Positions 6,866-38,464 are shown, numbered from the stretch's first letter. The stretch: 50,668 nucleotides of DNA from an uncultured Gammaproteobacteria bacterium (GCA_964466835.1 CAYXNV010000006.1:1-50668); one strand, 5' to 3'. The notes: generated by a model from the letters alone, not told the origin. Numbers and translations are program-made.

Positions 6866-6866
6866 G

Positions 6867-6938
6867 AGCGGGTGAGCGGAATTGAACCGCCGTCTTATGC
6901 TTGGCAAGCATACGTACTAACCATTGTACTACACCCGC
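6867..6938 (-). tRNA. tRNA-Gly(GCC)
   Basis: GCGGGTG/CACCCGC acceptor stem, TATGC-TTGCCAA-GCATA anticodon arm, U73. Confidence 0.97.
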
Positions 6939-6946
6939 ATATTATG

Positions 6947-7028
6947 TGGTCCAGGTGGGAATCGAACCCACATGCCTTGCGGCACAGCATTTTAAGTGCT
7001 GCGTGTATACCAGTTCCACCACTGGACC
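6947..7028 (-). tRNA. tRNA-Leu(TAA)
   Basis: CAGCA-CTTAAAA-TGCTG anticodon arm, long variable arm, A73. Confidence 0.97.
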
Positions 7029-7038
7029 TACTATATTG

Positions 7039-7421
7039 TGGAGATGATGGGAGTTGAACCCATGTCCAACAGGCTTAACTAAACACATTTACAAGAATAG
7101 TCTGATTTATTTTAATTCATCTTAAACATCAAAAACCAAACAAAAGCGTTCAAGACTATCTTTCACTTGCTTCAATACTTCTTCAGAAAGAACAAAGAAG
7201 TATCTATCTTCATGAAATGACACCAGTAACCAACTATGAAGACTTGTTGGACTGATGGTTACGGCTCAAATTTTAGGCCATAACAGGAGCATAACTTGGA
7301 GTCTTCCAAGTGAATGCTTTTGCCATTTTGGCAGTTATGTTTGTTAGGTTATTTTTACGTTATAACTTAAACACGTCTCGAATGTTTAGAAAAATTCCTA
7401 CTGTCGATTCCTGGCATCCCC
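7039..7421 (-). ncRNA. ssrA: tmRNA
   Basis: 5' GGGGATG, 3' GTTCAACTCCCATCATCTCCA with G3:U70; tag frame after ATAACT at 7332-7273; 3 nt downstream of smpB. Confidence 0.95.
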
Positions 7422-19083: not shown

Positions 19084-19113
19084 ATTATATCACATACCCC
19101 CAGGGGGTGTCAA
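19084..19113 (-). promoter_or_regulatory. Promoter with CsoR-type operator
   Basis: TTGACA-18bp-TATAAT with ACCCCC-A-GGGGGT (19096-19108) in the spacer. Confidence 0.85.
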
Positions 19114-19147: not shown

Positions 19148-19834
19148 TTACTTTAATATTAGCCAATAATTATATTTATCTTTATATGAATCAATAATTG
19201 TTAATTTTGCTTTTTGAGCTAAAGATTTTAGTTCCCTGGTGGTAAAAGCATGATAATACCTCTCACTCACTTCTTCACCCTGAGAATTTTTCCAAGGAAA
19301 CATAATATCACCCCAATCCATTTTATTATTACCAAAAAGTTTTTTAAAATAAAATTTATAAATTAATTTTCTGTGCTTCCCCGCCCACATGTTCCAATTA
19401 CTAATAATAATTTCTCCATCTTGTCTTAGCTTACTCTTCATTTGTTGTAAAGCCTGGACTCTTAATTCTCTGCTGGGAATATGTTGTAAAACTGCTAAAC
19501 AAAAAATATAATCAAAATTATTATTTGGCACCGAGGCTAATTCAAGCAAATTACCAACCAGAAATTCATTGGGATAATTATTTCTAGCTAATTGGATAAG
19601 TTCTTTGCTGCTATCAATCCCTAAATATTCTATTTGTTTATCTTTAAACGCATCTAATAATCGACCATTGCCACAACCAACATCCAAAACTCTATCGCCA
19701 TTATTTATTTTCTCAGCTACTTTTCTAATTTCTGGCCAAATTTCTTTACGACGAGTAGTATTAAAATCATCAGCAATTGTTCTATAATTACTTTCCACCA
19801 ATCCTAACAAATTGTCTCTAGTTTTTTGATCCAT
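19148..19834 (-). CDS. Class I SAM methyltransferase, Trm9/ALKBH8-like
   Basis: YxxIAxxFxxTR..WP, DVGCGNG, AVLQH..RELRV, SKLRQDG, DIMFPW, RYYHAF..EL, NYW; start moved to MDQ. Confidence 0.75.
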   Translation of the reverse strand: MDQKTRDNLLGLVESNYRTIADDFNTTRRKEIWPEIRKVAEKINNGDRVLDVGCGNGRLLDAFKDKQIEYLGIDSSKELIQLARNNYPNEFLVGNLLELASVPNNNFDYIFCLAVLQHIPSRELRVQALQQMKSKLRQDGEIIISNWNMWAGKHRKLIYKFYFKKLFGNNKMDWGDIMFPWKNSQGEEVSERYYHAFTTRELKSLAQKAKLTIIDSYKDKYNYWLILK

Positions 19835-20312
19835 TTTGTTTAGAAGATATTGTCCAGCCAACCTCATTAAATGCTTTAAGTGCTTCATCTTTACAAACTC
19901 CAATTACTACTTCTGGTTCATCAGAGAAAATTGGACTAAATTGAGACAAATCTTTATCACCAAGAATATTCCATTTGGTATAGCCCCCCATTAATGGCGA
20001 AGTAAGAGCAAACACAACTCTCCCAACTTTATGCTCTCTGATCATAAAGGCGCACATGGGACAAGGCTCAAAATTAGAATATAAAGTGCACTCTGATAAA
20101 TCTTGTGTATTTAATTTTTTAACTGCTTCTTGCATTGCTAAAATTTCTGCATGGTGAGTGATTTCTTCCATCGAACCATTGTTTGTTTCGATAACAACTT
20201 CACCACCTTTAGTAATAACGCAACCGAAGGGGTTTCTGCCATTATCAACAGATTCTCTAGCTAACTCTATACACCTTTTAATAAATTTTTCATCATTATT
20301 TTGTTGTTTCAT
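19818..20312 (-). CDS. Nucleoside deaminase (TadA/guanine deaminase superfamily)
   Basis: PFG, HAE and EPCPMC zinc motifs. Confidence 0.88.
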   Translation of the reverse strand: MKQQNNDEKFIKRCIELARESVDNGRNPFGCVITKGGEVVIETNNGSMEEITHHAEILAMQEAVKKLNTQDLSECTLYSNFEPCPMCAFMIREHKVGRVVFALTSPLMGGYTKWNILGDKDLSQFSPIFSDEPEVVIGVCKDEALKAFNEVGWTISSKQNGSKN

Positions 20313-20318
20313 ATGTTT

Positions 20319-22100
20319 TTACCCTAAATACTCTTTATAACGATAGTCTTCACCTGTTTTGGTCTTATTCTTCTTTAATTTTATACAACCATCGCATTGA
20401 TTACAAGGCTTAGAGTCTGCATCACCAAAATAATTTAAAATATATTCTTGACGACAGCCTAAATGATAGACATAATTCTCCATTTCATCAAGTTTTTCAT
20501 AGGCTCGAGCGGCTTTAGCTTTAAGGGCTTTAAAATCTAAATTTAAATCTTCTGGCTCTACTATTTTAAGGATTCTAATTTCAGTCCCTCGAAAAGGGGG
20601 GCGATATTCAACTAATTCTTTCTCAGCTAATTTTTTAACTGTTCGTAATAATGAGTCTTTTTTTACTTTTAAGACAACTGCTACTTCTTCAGGATTAAAT
20701 TCCCAACCAGATTTTAACTCTTTAGTATATTTTTCACTTAACTTTTCAACTATTTCTCTTTGCACCTTGGCTCGTTTACTAAGAGATTCAAATATTTTTT
20801 CCCAGTCCTTTTTTATTTTCAAGAAAGAGTTAGAGTTTCTTTCATTGGGCCGAGTAATATATCCTTCTTTCTCTAAAATCTTTAATGAAGTGCCAATTGC
20901 CATTTCAGGAACAGCTTCAGACAAACTTTGGGCAATATCAGCATAAGTAATTAGGATTGAGGCCTTGGGATCAATCTCGTTTTCTATCTTTTGTAAAAGA
21001 AAATCATAGATTTCAATAATTATCCTCGGATCAGGGTTGTCGCCTTTGATGAAAAACTCACGTAGATAACGATCTTGTTTGTGATGAAAAAGAATACAAA
21101 AACTAGCTTGATTATCTCGACCAGCTCGCCCCGCCTCTTGATAATAGGCTTCAATTGTGCCGGGTAAATCAAAATGAATAACAAAACGAATATCCTTTTT
21201 ATTGATCCCCAAACCAAAAGCATTAGTGGCCACTACCACTTGAGCCTGGTCTTTCATAAATTGTTCTTGTACCCAGTCACGACTATTACTATCCATGCCA
21301 GCATGATAGACAACCGCTTTAACATCACTGTCTGTCAGTATATCAACAATTTCATCAGCTTTAGATCTGGTACCAACATAAATAATACCCGAACCTAAAT
21401 CTGGGTTAGTGGTTAATAGATTTAAAATATTATCTAGCTTTTGACCATTACCAGCGGAAACAACAGCAAATTGCAAATTGGGACGAGCAAAACCAGTTAC
21501 TACTAATTCTGGATCTTTTAAGTTTAATTGTTTAATAACATCTTCCCGTACTTCTGGGGTAGCAGTAGCAGTCAAAGCAACAACTACCGGCGAACCAACT
21601 AATTTAATCGCCTCTTTTAATCTTAAATAACTGGGACGAAAATCATGCCCCCATTGACTAACACAGTGAGCCTCATCAATAGCAAATAAAGAGACTTTAA
21701 TATCTTTTAACTGCCTGATAAAATTATGATTATAGAATCTCTCTGGAGCAATATAGACCAATTTGTATTCACCTGATTTTATCTTTTGTAATCGTTTTTC
21801 TGTTTCTAATATCGAAATAGAAGAGTTAATAAAAGTAGCGGGTATGCCAACTTTATCCAAGGAATCAACTTGATCTTTCATCAAAGCAATTAGAGGAGAA
21901 ATTACAATTGTAACTCCCTCTAACACTAAAGCTGGTAACTGAAAAATCATTGACTTACCCCCTCCGGTTGGTAAAACAACCATTGTATTCTTATTAAATA
22001 AAATGTTATCAATCGCCTCTTCTTGGCCAGGTAAAAAAGATTCATAACCAAAATGAATCTTTAATAATTCTAATAATTGTTTTTTCTTTTTTGCTGACAT
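20319..22100 (-). CDS. recQ: RecQ-family DNA helicase (no HRDC domain)
   Basis: PTGGGKS, DEAHCVSQWGHDFRP, QEAGRAGRD, C-terminal Zn ligands. Confidence 0.93.
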   Translation of the reverse strand: MSAKKKKQLLELLKIHFGYESFLPGQEEAIDNILFNKNTMVVLPTGGGKSMIFQLPALVLEGVTIVISPLIALMKDQVDSLDKVGIPATFINSSISILETEKRLQKIKSGEYKLVYIAPERFYNHNFIRQLKDIKVSLFAIDEAHCVSQWGHDFRPSYLRLKEAIKLVGSPVVVALTATATPEVREDVIKQLNLKDPELVVTGFARPNLQFAVVSAGNGQKLDNILNLLTTNPDLGSGIIYVGTRSKADEIVDILTDSDVKAVVYHAGMDSNSRDWVQEQFMKDQAQVVVATNAFGLGINKKDIRFVIHFDLPGTIEAYYQEAGRAGRDNQASFCILFHHKQDRYLREFFIKGDNPDPRIIIEIYDFLLQKIENEIDPKASILITYADIAQSLSEAVPEMAIGTSLKILEKEGYITRPNERNSNSFLKIKKDWEKIFESLSKRAKVQREIVEKLSEKYTKELKSGWEFNPEEVAVVLKVKKDSLLRTVKKLAEKELVEYRPPFRGTEIRILKIVEPEDLNLDFKALKAKAARAYEKLDEMENYVYHLGCRQEYILNYFGDADSKPCNQCDGCIKLKKNKTKTGEDYRYKEYLG

Positions 22101-22109
22101 TAGGTGTGT

Positions 22110-22796
22110 TTATTGTTCTTTTTTAACAAATAAAATTTGATTCCCGTTTTCAGGATCTTCTGATCGAATAAAATCAACTCCTAAATATCCTTCAGCTAAT
22201 AATTTTTCAACTGTCTCATGGTCGTTTGGATTAACCAAGACTTGATCATCCATCTTGCTATAATCATTGCTGTCCTTTATTGATAAATTCTTACGATAAA
22301 AATAATTTATTTCATTATCCCTAGCATCAATTCCTTCTATTTTATAGCCATTTTTCATTCTTAAATTCATACTAGGAAAATTATCATTAGCAATAACTGT
22401 AACAATAGAACTTTTCCCTGCTTCACGTGCTATTCGATCTTGCTCAGCTAATAATTTTTTACCTATACCTTCCTCTCTTTTATTTTTATCAACTACTGTT
22501 CCAGCTGCCCAAGCTTCATTTGGTTTTATTTTCTTACCCATGGTACCCGACTCTAAAACCACCACTGAAGTGCCAATTATCTGATTACCTTTATTGATTT
22601 TAGCTACTTTTAATTGATTTTCTTTTATTTGCTTTTGCCTAAAAGCAACCATTTTATCAAAAGTGGTTTCTTTGGGCACCTCTGAAAAACCTTGGTTAAT
22701 TTCAAATTGGTAGTAATTAGATACATCTTGAATATCATCTGGATTTACTTCGAAAGTTTTAATATTTTCGAACGGTTGTCTTTTTTCAAAATTCAT
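22110..22796 (-). CDS. GNAT-family acetyltransferase
   Basis: VDKNKREEGIGKKL motif A; N..S....KNGY. Confidence 0.8.
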   Translation of the reverse strand: MNFEKRQPFENIKTFEVNPDDIQDVSNYYQFEINQGFSEVPKETTFDKMVAFRQKQIKENQLKVAKINKGNQIIGTSVVVLESGTMGKKIKPNEAWAAGTVVDKNKREEGIGKKLLAEQDRIAREAGKSSIVTVIANDNFPSMNLRMKNGYKIEGIDARDNEINYFYRKNLSIKDSNDYSKMDDQVLVNPNDHETVEKLLAEGYLGVDFIRSEDPENGNQILFVKKEQ

Positions 22797-23592
22797 ATTT
22801 ATTGTTCTTTCTTTTATAAATTTCTAAAACATTTTTAAATAAAAAGGCAATGGTCATTGGCCCAATCCCGCCAGGCACAGGAGTGATATAGGCTACTTTA
22901 TCTTTAACGCTTTCAAAATCTACATCTCCTAATACTTTATCGTTAATTTTAGTAATACCAATATCAATAACTACTGCTCCTTCTTTAACCATCTCTTTTT
23001 TGATAGATTGAGGTGCCCCTAAAGCGGTAATTAATAAATCAGCATCAACTGATTTATTATCTGAACAAATTTTCAAACCTAAATCTTCTAAAAGTTTCTT
23101 TACACTCTGGCCAAAAATATCTGAGTTATATAAAACACAAGCCGTTTTATCCTTAGCTTCAAATTTGATTTCCTCCAAACAGGCCTTGATTGAAGCTAAG
23201 ACTGGTGAAAGAACATAATCTGGGCATTGGGGATGAAAACCATCTACATCTTTGTTAGGATTAATTACTTTAATTATCTTATTGGCATCAAATTTTTCTG
23301 GCAAAGGTAGTTGTACTAAAATCCCGTCAACTGCTTCATCTTTATTTAGCCAATTTATTGTTTCTAAAATTTTATCTTCATTTTCATCTTTATCAATCTT
23401 ATATAAACAAGTATCTACCCCTATTTTTACTCCTTCTTTTTCTTTAAGAGAAACATATAATTGGGAATCTGATCGATTACCAATTAAAATAATAGCCAAG
23501 TTTGGTCTTGGCCCTTGAAAGTCATAAATTTCTTTAGCGATCTTATCCTTAATTCTTTCAGCAATCGCTTTACCATTAATTAATTCAGCCAT
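22786..23592 (-). CDS. folD: Methylene-THF dehydrogenase/cyclohydrolase (divergent)
   Basis: YVSLK, GILVQLPLP, KDVDG, DIG, TPVPGGIGPMT. Confidence 0.92.
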   Translation of the reverse strand: MAELINGKAIAERIKDKIAKEIYDFQGPRPNLAIILIGNRSDSQLYVSLKEKEGVKIGVDTCLYKIDKDENEDKILETINWLNKDEAVDGILVQLPLPEKFDANKIIKVINPNKDVDGFHPQCPDYVLSPVLASIKACLEEIKFEAKDKTACVLYNSDIFGQSVKKLLEDLGLKICSDNKSVDADLLITALGAPQSIKKEMVKEGAVVIDIGITKINDKVLGDVDFESVKDKVAYITPVPGGIGPMTIAFLFKNVLEIYKRKNNKYEF

Positions 23593-23598
23593 AATTAA

Positions 23599-24843
23599 TT
23601 AGTTACTTGGAATGGGGAATTTTAAACATAATTCCCTAACTTTATCTTTTAATTTATTTAACTCATCTTCACTATCTTTATTTTTCAGAGCTAAATCAAT
23701 AAATTCAACAATAGTTTTTATTTCCGCCTCTTTCATTCCTCTGGTAGTAACGGCTGGGGTGCCAATTCTGATTCCAGAAGGATTATATGGTGGTCTTGGA
23801 TCATCAGGAATGGTTGATCTAGATATAGAAACACCAATTTTCTCTAAAGTTTTTTCCGCTTCTTTCCCACTTAAATCTTTATTACTTAAATCAACTACAA
23901 TTAAATGATTATCCGTTCCATCAGAAATAACTTTATAATCTAATTTAATAAATTCCTCGGCCATTATTTTAGCATTGGCAATTACTTGTTTAGAATATTC
24001 TTTGAACTCTGGTTTTAGGGCTTCAGCAAAGGCGACTGCTTTGGCAGCGGTAATATGATCATGAGGACCACCTTGCATACCAGGAAAAACTGCCCGATCA
24101 ACTTGTTTAGCAAACTCTTCTTTGCACATTATAATTGCTCCTCGTGGTCCGCGAAGAGTTTTGTGGGTAGTGGTGGAAACAACATCAAAAATTGGCACTG
24201 GATTAGTTAAAATGCCGGCAGCAATTAAGCCAGCCACATGAGCAATGTCAGCAAAAGTATAAGCACCAACCTCATCGGCAATTTCTTTGAACTTTTGCCA
24301 ATCAATTTCTCGGGAATAGGCACTAAAACCAGCTACAATCATCTTTGGTTTTTCTCGTAGAGCTACTTCTCTAACTTCTTCCATGTCGATTTTCCCTGTT
24401 TTGGGGTCAACACCATATTGAACAAAATTATATAGACGTCCAGAAAAATTAACATCATGCCCATGCGATAAATGACCCCCGTGGTCTAATTTTAGCCCCA
24501 ACACCTTGTCACCTGGCTCTAAAAAGGCCATGTAGACAGCCGCGTTAGCGGGAGAACCAGATAAAGGCTGGACATTAACATGTTCAGCTTTAAATAATTG
24601 TTTGGCTCGTTCAATTGCTAAATCCTCCACTTCATCAACAATTTGATTACCACCATAATAACGTTTACCACTATAGCCTTCACTATATTTATTGGTTAAA
24701 ACAGTCGCCATTGCTTCTAAAACAGCTGTAGAAACATAATTTTCTGAGGCAATTAGCTCTATTTCTTCATTTTGACGCTTAGCTTCACGTTCAATAATCT
24801 CTAAAATAGCCGGATCTTGTTGTTTTATATGCTTATAGTCCAT
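23599..24843 (-). CDS. glyA: Serine hydroxymethyltransferase
   Basis: LIASEN, NKYSEGY, GGHLSHG, TTTHKTLRGPRG. Confidence 0.98.
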   Translation of the reverse strand: MDYKHIKQQDPAILEIIEREAKRQNEEIELIASENYVSTAVLEAMATVLTNKYSEGYSGKRYYGGNQIVDEVEDLAIERAKQLFKAEHVNVQPLSGSPANAAVYMAFLEPGDKVLGLKLDHGGHLSHGHDVNFSGRLYNFVQYGVDPKTGKIDMEEVREVALREKPKMIVAGFSAYSREIDWQKFKEIADEVGAYTFADIAHVAGLIAAGILTNPVPIFDVVSTTTHKTLRGPRGAIIMCKEEFAKQVDRAVFPGMQGGPHDHITAAKAVAFAEALKPEFKEYSKQVIANAKIMAEEFIKLDYKVISDGTDNHLIVVDLSNKDLSGKEAEKTLEKIGVSISRSTIPDDPRPPYNPSGIRIGTPAVTTRGMKEAEIKTIVEFIDLALKNKDSEDELNKLKDKVRELCLKFPIPSN

Positions 24844-24883
24844 AACTTAATATTAGTTTAAGGAAAGGGGTTTGTCAAAACTA

Positions 24884-26461
24884 TTATAACCCCTTAATCA
24901 TATAGGTATTTTTAAGTTTATACCCTAGTTTTTTATAATATCCTCTTACACCTACTCCAGAAATAATAGTTAATGTATCTATTTTATTTTTCTTAACAAT
25001 CTTTTCTGCTTCAATCATTAATTTCTTTCCTAAGCCACTGTGTTGAACTTTTTTCTTCTGACCGACTGAAACTAATTCACCATAGACATGAAGTTCGCGA
25101 ATAAAAGCAGGATAATTTTCATTATTTTGATCAATTCTTAAGCGACAAAAACCATATAGAACCTTTTTATTTTTACTATCAGCGCTGATAAAATATTCTG
25201 TGCCTTCAGAGGCAGGATATTTAATAATATTAATTTTATATTTTTCTATTTTTTTATCCCTAGCTTCACGGCAACGAATACAGCTACATTTAACCCCCTG
25301 GTCTTTCATCACCTGACGAAGATTAGTAATTTTGTTGCCAGCAATAATTGATTCACCTGGGATATCCCTGACTAATCTAATAATTCTAACATATTTAGGT
25401 ACGAGGGCTTTACATTTAATAATTAAATTTTGTAGAACTTTGTTAGAATAAGGTTTATATTCCCCTCGCTTGTACCAACGATATAATAAACTACCCTTAG
25501 TAACGACAGTGGGATAGAATTTAATTTGATCAGGCTGAAAATTTTGATCAGTGAATAATTTCTTAAATAATTTTAAATCTTTAGCTGGAGTTGCTCCTGG
25601 TAAAGCTGGCATTAAATGATAGGTAACTTTGAAACCATAATCTTTTAACAATTTGGTGGCTTCAATTATTTCTTTAACCCCATGTCCGCGTTTATTTAAT
25701 TTTAATATTTTATCATCAACCGCTTGGACACCCATCTCTACTCGCGTACAGCCAAATTCTCTCATTTCCAAAACTTCATCTTTATCAATATAGTCTGGCC
25801 TAGTTTCTAGAGTGAGCCCAATAATTTTATATTTAGCAATTTCATTTCTCTTTTGTTCTTTTTTTAATAACTTTTTAAAGTCTTCCATCTTCAAATTTTT
25901 TCTATAAACACTTTTAAGGTCAATTTTCTTCTTCTGATAATCATTAGCGGCTTTAAAACAATTTAAGATATACCAATATTTATATTTAATTGGTAGATAA
26001 CTCCAAGTACCACCAATGACAATCAATTCAATTTTGGTAGGATTATGACCATTGGCCTCTAAAGCCTTTAATCTAAGCACTACTTGTTTATAGGGATTAT
26101 AACCACAACGAATCGCTCTCATTACCGCTGGCTCATTAGATAAATAGCTAGTTGGTACTTCTTTTTCATGGGGGCAATAAGCACAAGTTCCTGGGCAGGG
26201 ATAGGCTTTGGTTAAAACCGCTACCGGGGCAATGCCAGACATGGTTCTAATAGCTCGTTTCCGTAATGCCTTTTCCAATAATCCATTTTTGCGTATCTTT
26301 TTTTTCTGTAATAAAAGCCGATATCCTGCTAAAATATCAGAATTAAGTAAAGAAGGAAGATTATATTTCCGACAAATTTTTCGTCTTAACACCTCTAAAT
26401 CTTCTCTATTTTTTACATTTTTTCCATGTTTTTCCAATAATTCTTTTATTGCTTCCGACAT
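24884..26461 (-). CDS. elp3: Elp3 radical SAM/KAT tRNA U34 carboxymethyltransferase
   Basis: CPGTCAYC, GGT, ETRPD, EMGVQ, RDIP, CIRCRE, IRELHVYG, QHSGLG, ISGVGVRGYY; start moved to MSE. Confidence 0.93.
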   Translation of the reverse strand: MSEAIKELLEKHGKNVKNREDLEVLRRKICRKYNLPSLLNSDILAGYRLLLQKKKIRKNGLLEKALRKRAIRTMSGIAPVAVLTKAYPCPGTCAYCPHEKEVPTSYLSNEPAVMRAIRCGYNPYKQVVLRLKALEANGHNPTKIELIVIGGTWSYLPIKYKYWYILNCFKAANDYQKKKIDLKSVYRKNLKMEDFKKLLKKEQKRNEIAKYKIIGLTLETRPDYIDKDEVLEMREFGCTRVEMGVQAVDDKILKLNKRGHGVKEIIEATKLLKDYGFKVTYHLMPALPGATPAKDLKLFKKLFTDQNFQPDQIKFYPTVVTKGSLLYRWYKRGEYKPYSNKVLQNLIIKCKALVPKYVRIIRLVRDIPGESIIAGNKITNLRQVMKDQGVKCSCIRCREARDKKIEKYKINIIKYPASEGTEYFISADSKNKKVLYGFCRLRIDQNNENYPAFIRELHVYGELVSVGQKKKVQHSGLGKKLMIEAEKIVKKNKIDTLTIISGVGVRGYYKKLGYKLKNTYMIKGL

Positions 26462-38386: not shown

Positions 38387-38392
38387 ATACAG

Positions 38393-38464
38393 TACGCCCA
38401 GAGGGAATCGAACCCCCATCTAGAGCTTAGAAGGCTCCCGTTCTATCCGTTGAACTATGGGCGC
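38393..38464 (-). tRNA. tRNA-Arg(TCT)
   Basis: GGAGC-CTTCTAA-GCTCT anticodon arm; complete cloverleaf. Confidence 0.97.

What the first reader, a model, noticed from the sequence alone, without database searches (positions are those of the whole stretch)
19148..26461. Elp3 plus a Trm9-like methyltransferase: possible eukaryote/archaea-type mcm5U34 pathway in a bacterium
Seen: one minus-strand run elp3-glyA-folD-GNAT-recQ-deaminase-methyltransferase with gaps of 40 nt or less. The methyltransferase has, in order, motifs I recall from yeast Trm9/ALKBH8 (YxxIAxxFxxTR, WP, DVGCGNG, AVxxH..RExRV, SKLRQxG, DxxxPW, RxYH..EL, NxW). tRNA-Arg(UCU), a classic Trm9 substrate, is in the window. Known: Elp3 makes cm5U34 and Trm9 (with Trm112) methylates it, whereas most bacteria use MnmE/MnmG. 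Inference: this lineage may decode AAA/GAA/AGA with mcm5U, perhaps without Trm112.
Basis: partly seen in the sequence, partly recalled or inferred. Interest (0 to 1): 0.78.

Follow-up and report, generated by a model that had tools for sequence, protein, structure and literature searches.

The report
Bacterial Elp3 plus stand-alone Trm9 methyltransferase
A tiny-genome (Patescibacteria/CPR) bacterium carries Elp3 and a Trm9-type methyltransferase, the two enzymes eukaryotes and archaea use to build the tRNA wobble base mcm5U, and it apparently does so without the helper protein Trm112 that eukaryotic Trm9 needs.

Summary
One minus-strand run, elp3-glyA-folD-GNAT-recQ-deaminase-methyltransferase, lies at 19148-26461 with gaps of 40 nt or less.

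- **Elp3 is genuine:** TIGR01211 scores 531 bits against a cut-off of 350.
- **The 228-aa methyltransferase is Trm9-type:** the family profile hits the Yarrowia Trm9 chain 5cm2_Z at 1.3e-32, against 8e-21 for the next structure. Foldseek ranks it first. All 8 residues essential in yeast Trm9 are present.
- **It travels with Elp3:** across 301 genomes of the phylum, 79 of 81 genomes with a hit of 60 bits or more have Elp3. In 65 genomes the two genes sit head to head.
- **This window's layout is a variant:** it is a co-directional cluster shared with its closest relatives.
- **Rest of the genome (94.6% complete):** MnmA is present. No MnmG, MnmE, Trm112, CmoA or CmoB was found.
- **Trm112 independence:** two Trm112-contact positions that are hydrophobic in 18 of 19 eukaryotic sequences are polar in about 90% of the bacterial ones.

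The predicted products are mcm5U34 and mcm5s2U34, made without Trm112. No chemistry was tested. This scan has already noted the same gene pair on at least 9 other genomes. I found no paper describing it.

The parts
24884..26461 (-). Elp3: radical-SAM plus GNAT/KAT enzyme, the predicted cm5U34 synthase. The ORF could also start at TTG 26515.
   Evidence: TIGR01211 scores 531 bits against a cut-off of 350, covering model positions 9-521 of 522. The best solved match is the 'ELP3 family' chain 5l7j_A at 1.2e-116. The sequence shows CPGTCAYC and QHSGLGKKL motifs.
19148..19834 (-). Trm9-type class I SAM methyltransferase (228 aa), the predicted cm5U34 to mcm5U34 carboxyl O-methyltransferase. It stands alone, with no Trm112.
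   Evidence: 5cm2_Z (Y. lipolytica Trm9) is the best sequence, profile and fold match. The AF2 model has pLDDT 96.1. R28, D74, H118, W147, W181, R192, Y194 and N222 match the 8 essential ScTrm9 residues. It co-occurs with and lies next to Elp3 across the phylum.
23599..24843 (-). glyA (serine hydroxymethyltransferase). It lies between elp3 and the methyltransferase. It is conserved synteny in this lineage, with no shown role in the pathway.
   Evidence: PF00464 at 544 bits and NF000586 at 613 bits. The same order is seen in relatives.
22786..23592 (-). folD (methylene-THF dehydrogenase/cyclohydrolase).
   Evidence: PF02882 and PF00763 match. NCBIfam FolD models are below their equivalog cut-offs but are the only hits.
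22110..22796 (-). GNAT-family acetyltransferase of unknown substrate. It was not detected in the relatives' clusters.
   Evidence: PF00583 at 28 bits. No tblastn hit at 1e-8 in any of the 80 related loci.
20319..22100 (-). RecQ-family helicase. In relatives it lies directly upstream of the methyltransferase.
   Evidence: TIGR00614 at 423 bits against a cut-off of 220. recQ is directly upstream of the methyltransferase in 16 of 80 loci.
19818..20312 (-). CDA-superfamily deaminase of unresolved specificity. It overlaps the methyltransferase start by 17 nt.
   Evidence: PF00383 at 80 bits. TadA scores only 57 bits against a cut-off of 150. TadA, guanosine-deaminase and dCMP-deaminase structures all score about 62-71 bits. 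It was not detected in the relatives' clusters.
19084..19113 (-). Sigma-70-like promoter (TTGACA-18-TATAAT, 12 of 12, with TG) in the 65-nt gap after the methyltransferase. It suggests that csoR-trx-gdh form a separate unit and that the methyltransferase ends the elp3 unit.
   Evidence: This is a consensus match only. The total number of promoter-like sites in the region (50) is not above the shuffles (42.9 +/- 6.7).
38392..38464 (-). tRNA-Arg(UCU), a candidate U34 substrate.
   Evidence: ARAGORN. Its status as a substrate is inferred from yeast.
6946..7028 (-). tRNA-Leu(UAA), another U34 tRNA in the window and a possible substrate.
   Evidence: ARAGORN. Its status as a substrate is speculative.

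Best explanation
The window encodes a two-enzyme route to the wobble-uridine side chain mcm5.

1. **Elp3 (24884-26461)** works alone, as in archaea and in Dehalococcoides. It uses SAM and acetyl-CoA to put a carboxymethyl group on C5 of U34 (cm5U).
2. **The 228-aa Trm9-type methyltransferase (19148-19834)** then uses SAM to methyl-esterify that carboxyl group (mcm5U). By homology with the yeast enzyme's model:
   - R28 and H118 position the carboxylate.
   - N222 reads the uracil.
   - W147 stacks on the uracil.
3. **The genome's bacterial-type MnmA** adds the 2-thio group on tRNA-Lys(UUU), Glu(UUC) and Gln(UUG), giving mcm5s2U.

Unlike eukaryotic and Haloferax Trm9, the enzyme works without Trm112: part of the surface that Trm112 covers has become polar.

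- **Shown here:** gene identities, conservation of the residues, genomic linkage, and the apparent lack of the MnmEG, CmoAB and Trm112 genes.
- **Inferred:** the chemistry, the tRNA substrates and the independence from Trm112.
For: **Elp3.** It is over the family cut-off and full length.

**Methyltransferase identity.**
- phmmer finds 5cm2_Z at 4e-18; the next structure is at 7e-8.
- The 50-sequence profile finds it at 1.3e-32; the next is at 8e-21.
- Foldseek ranks it first: E 8.9e-18, target TM 0.83.
- A named ALKBH8 aligns over 95% of the protein.

**Essential residues.** The ScTrm9 residues R29, D72, H116, W145, W168, R241, Y243 and N271 (PMC4678810, passages) are 8 of 8 in the window protein. 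Among 41 diverse bacterial members the counts are R 41, D 39 (+2 E), H 41, W 41, W 34 (+6 F), R 40, Y 18 and N 39.

**Linkage to Elp3.**
- Elp3 is over the cut-off in 118 of 301 phylum genomes.
- 79 of the 81 genomes with a methyltransferase hit of 60 bits or more are among them.
- In 65 genomes the pair is 300 bp or less apart, and always divergent.
- 52 of 80 loci from named genome records hold Elp3.
- All 5 relatives checked that have the window's arrangement have Elp3.

**This genome.** No MnmG. No MnmE over the cut-off. No Trm112. No CmoB or CmoA. MnmA scores 390 bits. The U34 tRNAs Lys, Glu, Gln, Arg-UCU, Gly-UCC and Leu-UAA are present.

**Trm112 across the phylum.** It is over the cut-off in only 12 of 301 genomes, always inside open frames of 201-758 aa, mostly about 300 aa or more.

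**Interface positions.** At YlTrm9 V59 and F78, eukaryotes are hydrophobic in 18 of 19 and 18 of 19 sequences. The bacterial family is hydrophobic in 3 of 41 and 4 of 41. The window protein has R48 and E69.

**Clade test.** p-AU 0.858.
Against: - No nucleoside or enzyme data exist for any of these organisms, and no RNA run is listed for this DNA.
- In eukaryotes Trm9 is insoluble or inactive without Trm112 (PMC4678810), and no partner was found here.
- The Y243-equivalent is Tyr in only 18 of 41 bacterial members.
- 26 of 118 Elp3-positive genomes, including all 14 of family f28, have no methyltransferase hit of 40 bits or more. The methyl ester is therefore not obligatory downstream of Elp3.
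- One genome (G069) has the methyltransferase without a detected Elp3.
- The free quick tree put 5 long-branch paralogs on the Trm9 side. The bacterial group was not one clean clade in it.
- No archaeal Trm9 sequence could be obtained for the tree.
- In this window the two genes are 5 kb apart, not adjacent.
- Related genomes are not independent, so the co-occurrence counts overstate the statistics.
Confidence: 0.7

Rival explanations
1. The methyltransferase does act on Elp3-modified tRNA, but it needs an unrecognised partner that replaces Trm112. Alternatively it works as a homo-oligomer that covers the same surface.
For: Eukaryotic and Haloferax Trm9 need Trm112 (PMC4678810; PMC6144793). 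Part of the interface stays hydrophobic in the bacterial family: the F116 position in 40 of 41 sequences and the V102 position in 26 of 41.
Against: No gene family other than Elp3 and lineage-specific glyA/recQ/folD recurs beside the methyltransferase in 120 loci. Trm112 is over the cut-off in 12 of 301 genomes. Two core contact positions are charged or polar in about 90% of members.
Confidence: 0.12
2. The methyltransferase is linked to Elp3 but makes a different end product. For example, it might methylate another intermediate or atom of the side chain, or cm5U might be routed mainly to an amide (ncm5U-like) form.
For: In yeast trm9 mutants ncm5U accumulates, which shows that the pathway's chemistry is not fully settled (title and abstract of PMC3110198 in the listing). 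The Y243-equivalent varies. 26 Elp3-positive genomes lack the enzyme.
Against: Seven of the eight residues that build the cm5U-binding pocket are nearly invariant, including the Arg/His pair proposed to hold the carboxylate.
Confidence: 0.1
3. The protein is a generic class I methyltransferase with an unrelated substrate (small molecule, protein or rRNA). Its likeness to Trm9 and its place near elp3 would reflect ancestry and synteny only.
For: Pfam and NCBIfam give only generic methyltransferase families, and every NCBIfam hit is far below its cut-off. Public records call it 'class I SAM-dependent methyltransferase' or UbiE/UbiG-like.
Against: Divergent adjacency to Elp3 is kept in 65 genomes from many families of the phylum. 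Co-occurrence is 79 of 81 against a background of 118 of 301. The Trm9-specific C-terminal motifs (PW, RYYH, N-x-W) are conserved. No cmo5U pathway exists that could supply another carboxylated uridine.
Confidence: 0.06

Closest known systems
Yeast / Yarrowia Trm9-Trm112 (PDB 5CM2) and the methyltransferase domain of animal ALKBH8
   Same: It has the same fold and is the best sequence, profile and structure match. It shares the N-terminal F-x-x-T-R, motif I D-x-GCGNG, the A-V-x-H-H-type motif, W145, P-W, R-Y-Y-H and N-x-W. All 8 residues essential in ScTrm9 are present. The substrate-making enzyme Elp3 is present.
   Different: No Trm112 was found. Two Trm112-contact core positions are polar. 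There is no AlkB or RRM domain. The protein is shorter than ScTrm9. Thiolation would come from bacterial MnmA, not from the eukaryotic Ncs6/Urm1 route (recalled). Elp3 stands alone, without the other Elongator subunits (not searched here; stated for bacteria in PMC6367351 and PMC13315578).
Archaeal stand-alone Elp3 plus Trm9-Trm112 (Haloferax volcanii; elp3-trm9 gene cluster in Sulfolobus solfataricus)
   Same: It pairs a stand-alone Elp3 with a Trm9 orthologue, and the two genes cluster (PMC6144793, passages).
   Different: The archaeal Trm9 was shown to bind Trm112 (PMC6144793), and no Trm112 is found here. The host is a bacterium. I could not obtain an archaeal Trm9 sequence to compare directly.
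Dehalococcoides mccartyi Elp3 (DmcElp3)
   Same: It is a bacterial stand-alone Elp3. The window's Elp3 matches the 'ELP3 family' chain 5l7j_A at 1.2e-116 over residues 86-542. That 5l7j is DmcElp3 is recalled.
   Different: The papers I read call it a 'rare example of bacterial Elp3s' (PMC6367351), and the passages I saw do not mention a downstream methyltransferase. Here Elp3 is common: 118 of 301 genomes of the phylum sample, and it is paired with Trm9.
Bacterial MnmE-MnmG (cmnm5U/mnm5U) with MnmA, and CmoM (methyl ester of cmo5U)
   Same: They do the same job, tuning U34 decoding of NNA/NNG codons. MnmA thiolation is shared. CmoM is a functional analogue, a SAM-dependent methyl esterification of a wobble-uridine carboxyl group (recalled).
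   Different: The enzymes that build the side chain are unrelated. MnmG and MnmE were not found in this genome, and MnmG is in only 11 of 301 phylum genomes. CmoA and CmoB were not found.

Membership tests
Trm9 / ALKBH8-type tRNA (cm5U34) methyltransferase | Class I SAM-methyltransferase fold with motif I and an acidic residue at the end of strand 2 that binds SAM (ScTrm9 D72) | tested here: met
   Pfam Methyltransf_23/11/25 match. The AF2 model has pLDDT 96.1 and a Rossmann-like strand order. D74 aligns with YlD83/ScD72 and is D in 39 of 41 members and E in 2.
Trm9 / ALKBH8-type tRNA (cm5U34) methyltransferase | Closer to Trm9 than to any other characterised methyltransferase | tested here: met
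   5cm2_Z scores 69 bits against 36 for the next, and 116 against 77 bits with the profile. It is the Foldseek top hit. Only solved structures and one library of names were compared.
Trm9 / ALKBH8-type tRNA (cm5U34) methyltransferase | Active-site residues shown essential in ScTrm9: R29, D72, H116, W145, W168, R241, Y243, N271 | tested here: met
   8 of 8 are present in the window protein (R28, D74, H118, W147, W181, R192, Y194, N222). Seven are nearly invariant in 41 bacterial members. The Y243 position is Tyr in 18 of 41.
Trm9 / ALKBH8-type tRNA (cm5U34) methyltransferase | One clade with eukaryotic and archaeal Trm9 to the exclusion of other methyltransferases | tested here: inconclusive
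   In the quick ML tree of 87 rows, a branch with SH-aLRT 93 joins 41 bacterial, 19 named eukaryotic and 11 unnamed rows, but also 5 long-branch paralogs. The AU test does not reject the clean clade: p 0.858, with the constrained tree 33 lnL better. The tree has no archaeal Trm9 and few outgroup families.
Trm9 / ALKBH8-type tRNA (cm5U34) methyltransferase | Obligate heterodimer with Trm112 | tested here: not met
   PF03966 was not found in this genome. It is over the cut-off in 12 of 301 phylum genomes, and only inside larger ORFs. The core contact positions V59 and F78 are polar in 38 of 41 and 37 of 41 members. This is why I call it a variant rather than a plain member.
Trm9 / ALKBH8-type tRNA (cm5U34) methyltransferase | Works downstream of Elp3/Elongator (the substrate cm5U34 is available) | tested here: met
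   Elp3 is in the same strand run. 79 of 81 genomes co-occur, and 65 have divergent adjacent pairs. This is genomic inference only.
Trm9 / ALKBH8-type tRNA (cm5U34) methyltransferase | Catalyses cm5U34 to mcm5U34 on tRNA | not testable with these tools
   It needs an enzyme assay or nucleoside mass spectrometry.
Elp3 (tRNA U34 carboxymethyl-forming radical-SAM/GNAT enzyme) | Full-length match to the Elp3 model, with radical-SAM and C-terminal acetyltransferase domains | tested here: met
   TIGR01211 scores 531 bits against a cut-off of 350, covering model positions 9-521 of 522. Radical_SAM, Radical_SAM_C and GNAT Pfam domains match. Solved Elp3 chains match at 1e-116 to 2e-85.
Elp3 (tRNA U34 carboxymethyl-forming radical-SAM/GNAT enzyme) | Forms cm5U34 on tRNA | not testable with these tools
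   The papers read (PMC6367351, PMC13315578) treat Elp3 as a tRNA-modifying enzyme in all three domains and as the likely sole maker of cm5U in archaea and bacteria. It has not been tested for this protein.

The most novel reading that the evidence does not exclude
Patescibacteria make the 'eukaryote-type' wobble base mcm5s2U by a chimeric pathway: a stand-alone Elp3, a naturally Trm112-independent Trm9 and the bacterial thiolase MnmA.

- mcm5U would then be a three-domain modification rather than one 'found only in eukaryotes'.
- The bacterial Trm9 would show how replacing a few hydrophobic surface residues frees a Trm112-client methyltransferase from its activator.
- About 57% of sampled genomes of the phylum (172 of 301) have neither Elp3 nor MnmG but mostly keep MnmA, so they may decode with s2U alone or with an unknown C5 pathway.
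Probability: 0.5. Interest if true: 0.75.

Novelty: new variant of a known kind. Interest (0 to 1): 0.62.

Why it matters
[quoted passage not shown] Archaeal Trm9 was added in 2018 (PMC6144793).

- **A bacterial mcm5U pathway.** If the prediction holds, a large bacterial radiation uses this pathway in place of MnmEG. Elp3 is in 118 of 301 sampled genomes, and the methyltransferase family has 3,074 clusters at E 1e-30 or better among 1.84 billion representatives.
- **Evolution of the modification.** That bears on how wobble-uridine modification evolved and on how reduced genomes decode AAA, GAA, CAA and AGA.
- **A tool for biochemistry.** A small, probably soluble, Trm112-independent Trm9 would help biochemistry and structural work with tRNA, because the eukaryotic enzyme must be co-expressed with Trm112.

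Tried and rejected
1. **Trm112-fused methyltransferase in f28 as a replacement Trm9.** Family f28 has Elp3 in 14 of 14 genomes but no hit to the window's methyltransferase. Its 308-aa methyltransferase with a C-terminal Trm112-like knuckle (L126:341-1267) best matches PH0226 (1ve3), not Trm9. It lacks the W145 and R241 equivalents. Rejected.
2. **Link between Elp3 and the lack of TilS (with tRNA-Ile-UAU).** The 2x2 table over 301 genomes is 51/67/69/114, which shows no association. Rejected.
3. **A conserved third gene or Trm112 analogue beside the pair.** All-against-all clustering of ORFs in 120 loci finds only Elp3 (94 loci), glyA (17), recQ (17), folD (12) and recurrent short ORFs. I take the short ORFs to be antisense shadows of conserved genes; I checked this by coordinates for one example only.
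4. **cmo5U/CmoM-type role.** No CmoA or CmoB was found.
5. **Expression.** No RNA holder is listed for this DNA.
6. **Archaeal Trm9 sequences.**
   - The genome-contig scan returned only bacterial-type loci among its best 80.
   - The unnamed short relatives of ALKBH8 carry no organism names.
   - ESM Atlas look-alike clusters (Chloroflexota, Promethearchaeota, Nucleocytoviricota) are leads only.
7. **My own mapping error.** In one search I first equated ScTrm9 D72 with the motif-I Asp (D51). Numbering against the 5cm2 chain shows it is D74.
8. **The free quick tree.** It placed 5 long-branch paralogs among the family. The constrained tree is better.

Full report
**1. Observation.**

They are Elp3 (24884-26461), glyA, folD, a GNAT, recQ, a CDA-type deaminase and a methyltransferase (19148-19834).

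- The gaps are 40, 6, -11, 9, 6 and -17 nt.
- Family scans confirm each assignment.
- Elp3 reaches 531 bits on TIGR01211 (cut-off 350). It matches solved Elp3 chains at 1e-116 to 2e-85.
- The methyltransferase gets only generic class I families from Pfam and NCBIfam.
- Its likely start is ATG 19834 (228 aa), as in the database gene call P0001 and many homologue alignments. TTG 19903 is less likely.
- tRNA-Arg(UCU) is at 38392-38464.

**2. Is the methyltransferase Trm9-like?**

Sequence and fold searches agree:
- Against all solved structures, the single sequence hits 5cm2_Z at 4e-18 (69 bits) over residues 52-251 of the long ORF. The next hit has 36 bits. Foldseek titles 5cm2 the Y. lipolytica Trm9-Trm112 complex.
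- A 50-sequence family profile (A1) raises this to 1.3e-32 (116 bits), against 8e-21 for the next structure.
- An AlphaFold model built on A1 (pLDDT 96.1) has 5cm2_Z as its top Foldseek match: E 8.9e-18, target TM 0.83.
- A named mite ALKBH8 (P0125), found among longer proteins, aligns over residues 12-228 against its C-terminal domain 400-647.

The active-site residues match:
- Letoquart et al. 2015 (PMC4678810; passages read) showed by mutagenesis that ScTrm9 R29, D72, H116, W145, W168, R241, Y243 and N271 are needed for activity.
- In the window protein these are R28, D74, H118, W147, W181, R192, Y194 and N222, so 8 of 8 are present.
- In 41 diverse bacterial members the counts are R 41, D 39 (+2 E), H 41, W 41, W 34 (+6 F, 1 E), R 40, Y 18 and N 39.
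- The 19 named eukaryotic sequences keep them in 18-19 of 19.

**3. Phylogeny.**

I built a quick ML tree of 87 rows:

| Group | Rows |
|---|---|
| Bacterial family members | 41 |
| Named eukaryotic Trm9/ALKBH8 | 19 |
| Unnamed short relatives of ALKBH8 | 11 |
| Paralogous class I methyltransferases from the same phylum (plus L126) | 16 |

- One branch (SH-aLRT 93) puts all 71 family rows together, with 5 very long-branch paralogs. The other 11 paralogs fall on the other side.
- The eukaryotic and unnamed rows form a clade (SH-aLRT 98) that is separate from the bacterial rows.
- The groups were named before the tree was seen. The AU test does not reject the 71 rows as one clade (p-AU 0.858). 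The constrained tree is 33 lnL units better than the one the free search found.
- This is supportive, not conclusive. No archaeal Trm9 could be obtained and the outgroups are few. No rows were left out of this tree.

**4. Linkage with Elp3.**

I searched a sample of 301 genomes of the phylum, including the window's own:
- 117 genomes have a hit to the methyltransferase at E 1e-10 or better.
- 118 have Elp3 over the cut-off.
- Of the 81 genomes with a methyltransferase hit of 60 bits or more, 79 have Elp3.
- One exception, G276, has an Elp3 fragment at the contig end right beside the methyltransferase. The other is G069.
- In 65 genomes the two genes are 300 bp or less apart, and always divergent. 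In 12 more, including this one, they are within 6 kb.
- Weaker full-length hits (43-56 bits) that sit next to Elp3 show that the 60-bit line undercounts the family.
- 26 Elp3-positive genomes have no hit of 40 bits or more, including all 14 of family f28.

Among the best 80 loci from named genome records:
- 52 hold Elp3: 51 divergent and 1 in tandem (L082).
- 16 have recQ directly upstream of the methyltransferase.

**5. What is particular to this window.**

Its closest relatives (methyltransferase 44-54% identical) share a co-directional cluster: elp3-glyA-folD-recQ-methyltransferase-csoR-trx.
- L059 shows the Elp3 C-terminus upstream of glyA.
- All 5 such genomes checked have Elp3 over the cut-off. 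In 3 of them (G302, G303, G305) the coordinates place it just upstream of glyA.
- So in this lineage the usual head-to-head pair was rearranged into one strand run. The window is the only 'same-strand' case among the 78 same-contig hits within 6 kb in the phylum sample.
- The GNAT and the deaminase were not detected in any of the 80 loci, so they look like additions in this genome.
- A 12 of 12 sigma-70-like site at 19113-19084 precedes csoR. This suggests that the methyltransferase ends the elp3 unit. It is a consensus match only.

**6. Genome context.**

The genome has 841,841 bp in 32 contigs and is 94.64% complete.

| Gene | Result in this genome |
|---|---|
| MnmG | no match |
| MnmE | only GTPase-domain matches, at most 104 bits (cut-off 253) |
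| Trm112 (PF03966) | no match |
| CmoB, CmoA | nothing over the cut-off; the best 'CmoB' hit is this methyltransferase at 32 bits |
| MnmA | present, 390 bits |

- ARAGORN finds 41 tRNAs. They include Lys-UUU (2), Glu-UUC, Gln-UUG, Arg-UCU, Gly-UCC and Leu-UAA, together with the C34 partners Lys-CUU, Glu-CUC, Gln-CUG and Arg-CCU.
- Absence is stated for an incomplete genome.

Across the phylum sample:
- MnmG is in 11 of 301 genomes, and none of those has Elp3 over the cut-off.
- MnmA is over the cut-off in 257 of 301.
- 172 of 301 have neither Elp3 nor MnmG.

**7. Trm112.**

- PF03966 is over the cut-off in 12 of 301 genomes, and always inside open frames of 201-758 aa, mostly about 300 aa or more.
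- PMC4678810 names the Trm9 hydrophobic core that Trm112 shields: YlTrm9 V59, F78, V102, A110, P112 and F116. It says this explains why Trm9 must be co-expressed with Trm112.
- I mapped these positions through the 5cm2 and ALKBH8 alignments.

| YlTrm9 position | Eukaryotes hydrophobic | Bacterial family hydrophobic | Window residue |
|---|---|---|---|
| V59 | 18 of 19 | 3 of 41 | R48 |
| F78 | 18 of 19 | 4 of 41 | E69 |
| V102 | 19 of 19 | 26 of 41 | L92 |
| F116 | 19 of 19 | 40 of 41 | F107 |

- The loop positions A110 and P112 align poorly.
- Supplementary Table S1 of that paper, which gives the interface details, could not be seen.
- This pattern fits a stand-alone enzyme but does not prove one.
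- No other conserved neighbour was found in 120 loci.

**8. Mechanism proposed.**

- Elp3 makes cm5U34. PMC6367351 and PMC13315578 (passages) say Elp3 works as a tRNA modifier in all three domains, and probably alone in archaea and bacteria. The radical mechanism itself is recalled, not read here.
- The Trm9-type enzyme methylates the carboxyl group. The residue roles follow the docking model of PMC4678810.
- MnmA adds s2 on Lys, Glu and Gln tRNAs (its role is recalled).
- The products and substrates are inferred.

**9. Literature and earlier notes.**

- PMC6144793 (passages) establishes archaeal Trm9-Trm112. It notes an elp3-trm9 cluster in Sulfolobus and says 'nothing is known on bacterial Trm112 orthologues'.
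- Searches that found no description of a bacterial Trm9:
  - Elp3/Trm9/bacterial/Patescibacteria.
  - Elp3 plus 'Candidate Phyla Radiation', 0 papers.
  - Patescibacteria/tRNA modification/wobble/MnmG, where none of the 12 listed papers holds 'Patescibacteria'.
  - Dehalococcoides plus Trm9.
  - The phrase 'bacterial Trm9', 0 occurrences in the 20 papers listed of 21.
- The library lacks most subscription journals, and supplements were closed.
- This scan's own notebook holds the same Elp3-Trm9 reading for at least 9 other genomes. Those notes are unchecked AI notes. I had already found the linkage before I read them.

**10. Caveats.**

- The 301-genome tallies include G154, which flags as unpublished. 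It is one of the 120 TilS-positive genomes and one of the MnmA-negative ones.
- Related genomes are not independent.
- Organism labels on many TPA records (for example 'uncultured Gammaproteobacteria') are the depositors' own and may be unreliable.

**Verdict.** The finding is a Trm112-less bacterial variant of the Elp3/Trm9 pathway. It is widespread in Patescibacteria, it has been seen repeatedly by this scan, and I did not find it in print.

Noticed in passing
G000:C21:12078-12154 (outside the window), and the whole genome: The genome has a tRNA-Ile(UAU) and only two CAU tRNAs. No TilS was found. TilS is over the cut-off in only 120 of 301 genomes of the phylum sample, and in none of the 17 sampled genomes of the window's class, its own included. 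AUA is therefore probably read by a U34 tRNA. There is no association with Elp3 (51/67/69/114).
   Followed up: partly
window 19818-20312 (-): The CDA-type deaminase overlaps the methyltransferase start. TadA, guanosine-deaminase and dCMP-deaminase structures all score about 62-71 bits. The genome has tRNA-Arg(GCG), not ACG, so the usual TadA substrate is missing. The gene is not seen at this place in relatives.
   Followed up: partly
phylum sample of 301 genomes: 172 of 301 genomes have neither Elp3 nor MnmG, while MnmA is over the cut-off in 257 of 301. Most of the phylum may carry s2U34 without any known C5 side-chain pathway.
   Followed up: no
L126:341-1267 (+) (G174:C1) and family f28: Family f28 has Elp3 in 14 of 14 genomes but no Trm9-type hit. 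It encodes a 308-aa class I methyltransferase with a C-terminal Trm112-like zinc knuckle next to a ksgA/rsmA-like gene. This protein is not Trm9-like: its best solved match is 1ve3.
   Followed up: yes
P0121-P0124; L132 (G199:C1) and L133 (G127:C3): In some organisms the Trm9-type domain is fused to a C-terminal WecG/TagA-type glycosyltransferase domain (PF03808), giving proteins of about 490-525 aa. The Trm9 signature residues are largely kept.
   Followed up: partly
window 19084-19113 (-): A perfect sigma-70-like promoter (TTGACA-18-TATAAT with an upstream TG) lies in front of csoR-trx-gdh. A strong terminator-like hairpin lies at 17189-17160 after gdh.
   Followed up: no
P0014 (348 aa): One homologue carries thioredoxin domains fused after the methyltransferase. 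This echoes the methyltransferase-csoR-trx order in this lineage. It could be a real fusion or a read-through gene call.
   Followed up: no
window 6866-7421 (-): A tmRNA (tag AKMAKAFTWKTPSYAPVMA) lies directly beside tRNA-Leu(UAA) and tRNA-Gly(GCC).
   Followed up: no
ESM Atlas: Look-alike clusters of the methyltransferase are listed from Chloroflexota, Promethearchaeota (Asgard archaea) and Nucleocytoviricota, as well as from CPR phyla. These are leads to where else the family occurs and were not verified.
   Followed up: no
L064, L089, L094, L110, L116: In several head-to-head loci glyA lies just downstream of elp3 on the same strand. An elp3-glyA link therefore exists outside the window's lineage too. 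I have no functional reason for it.
   Followed up: no
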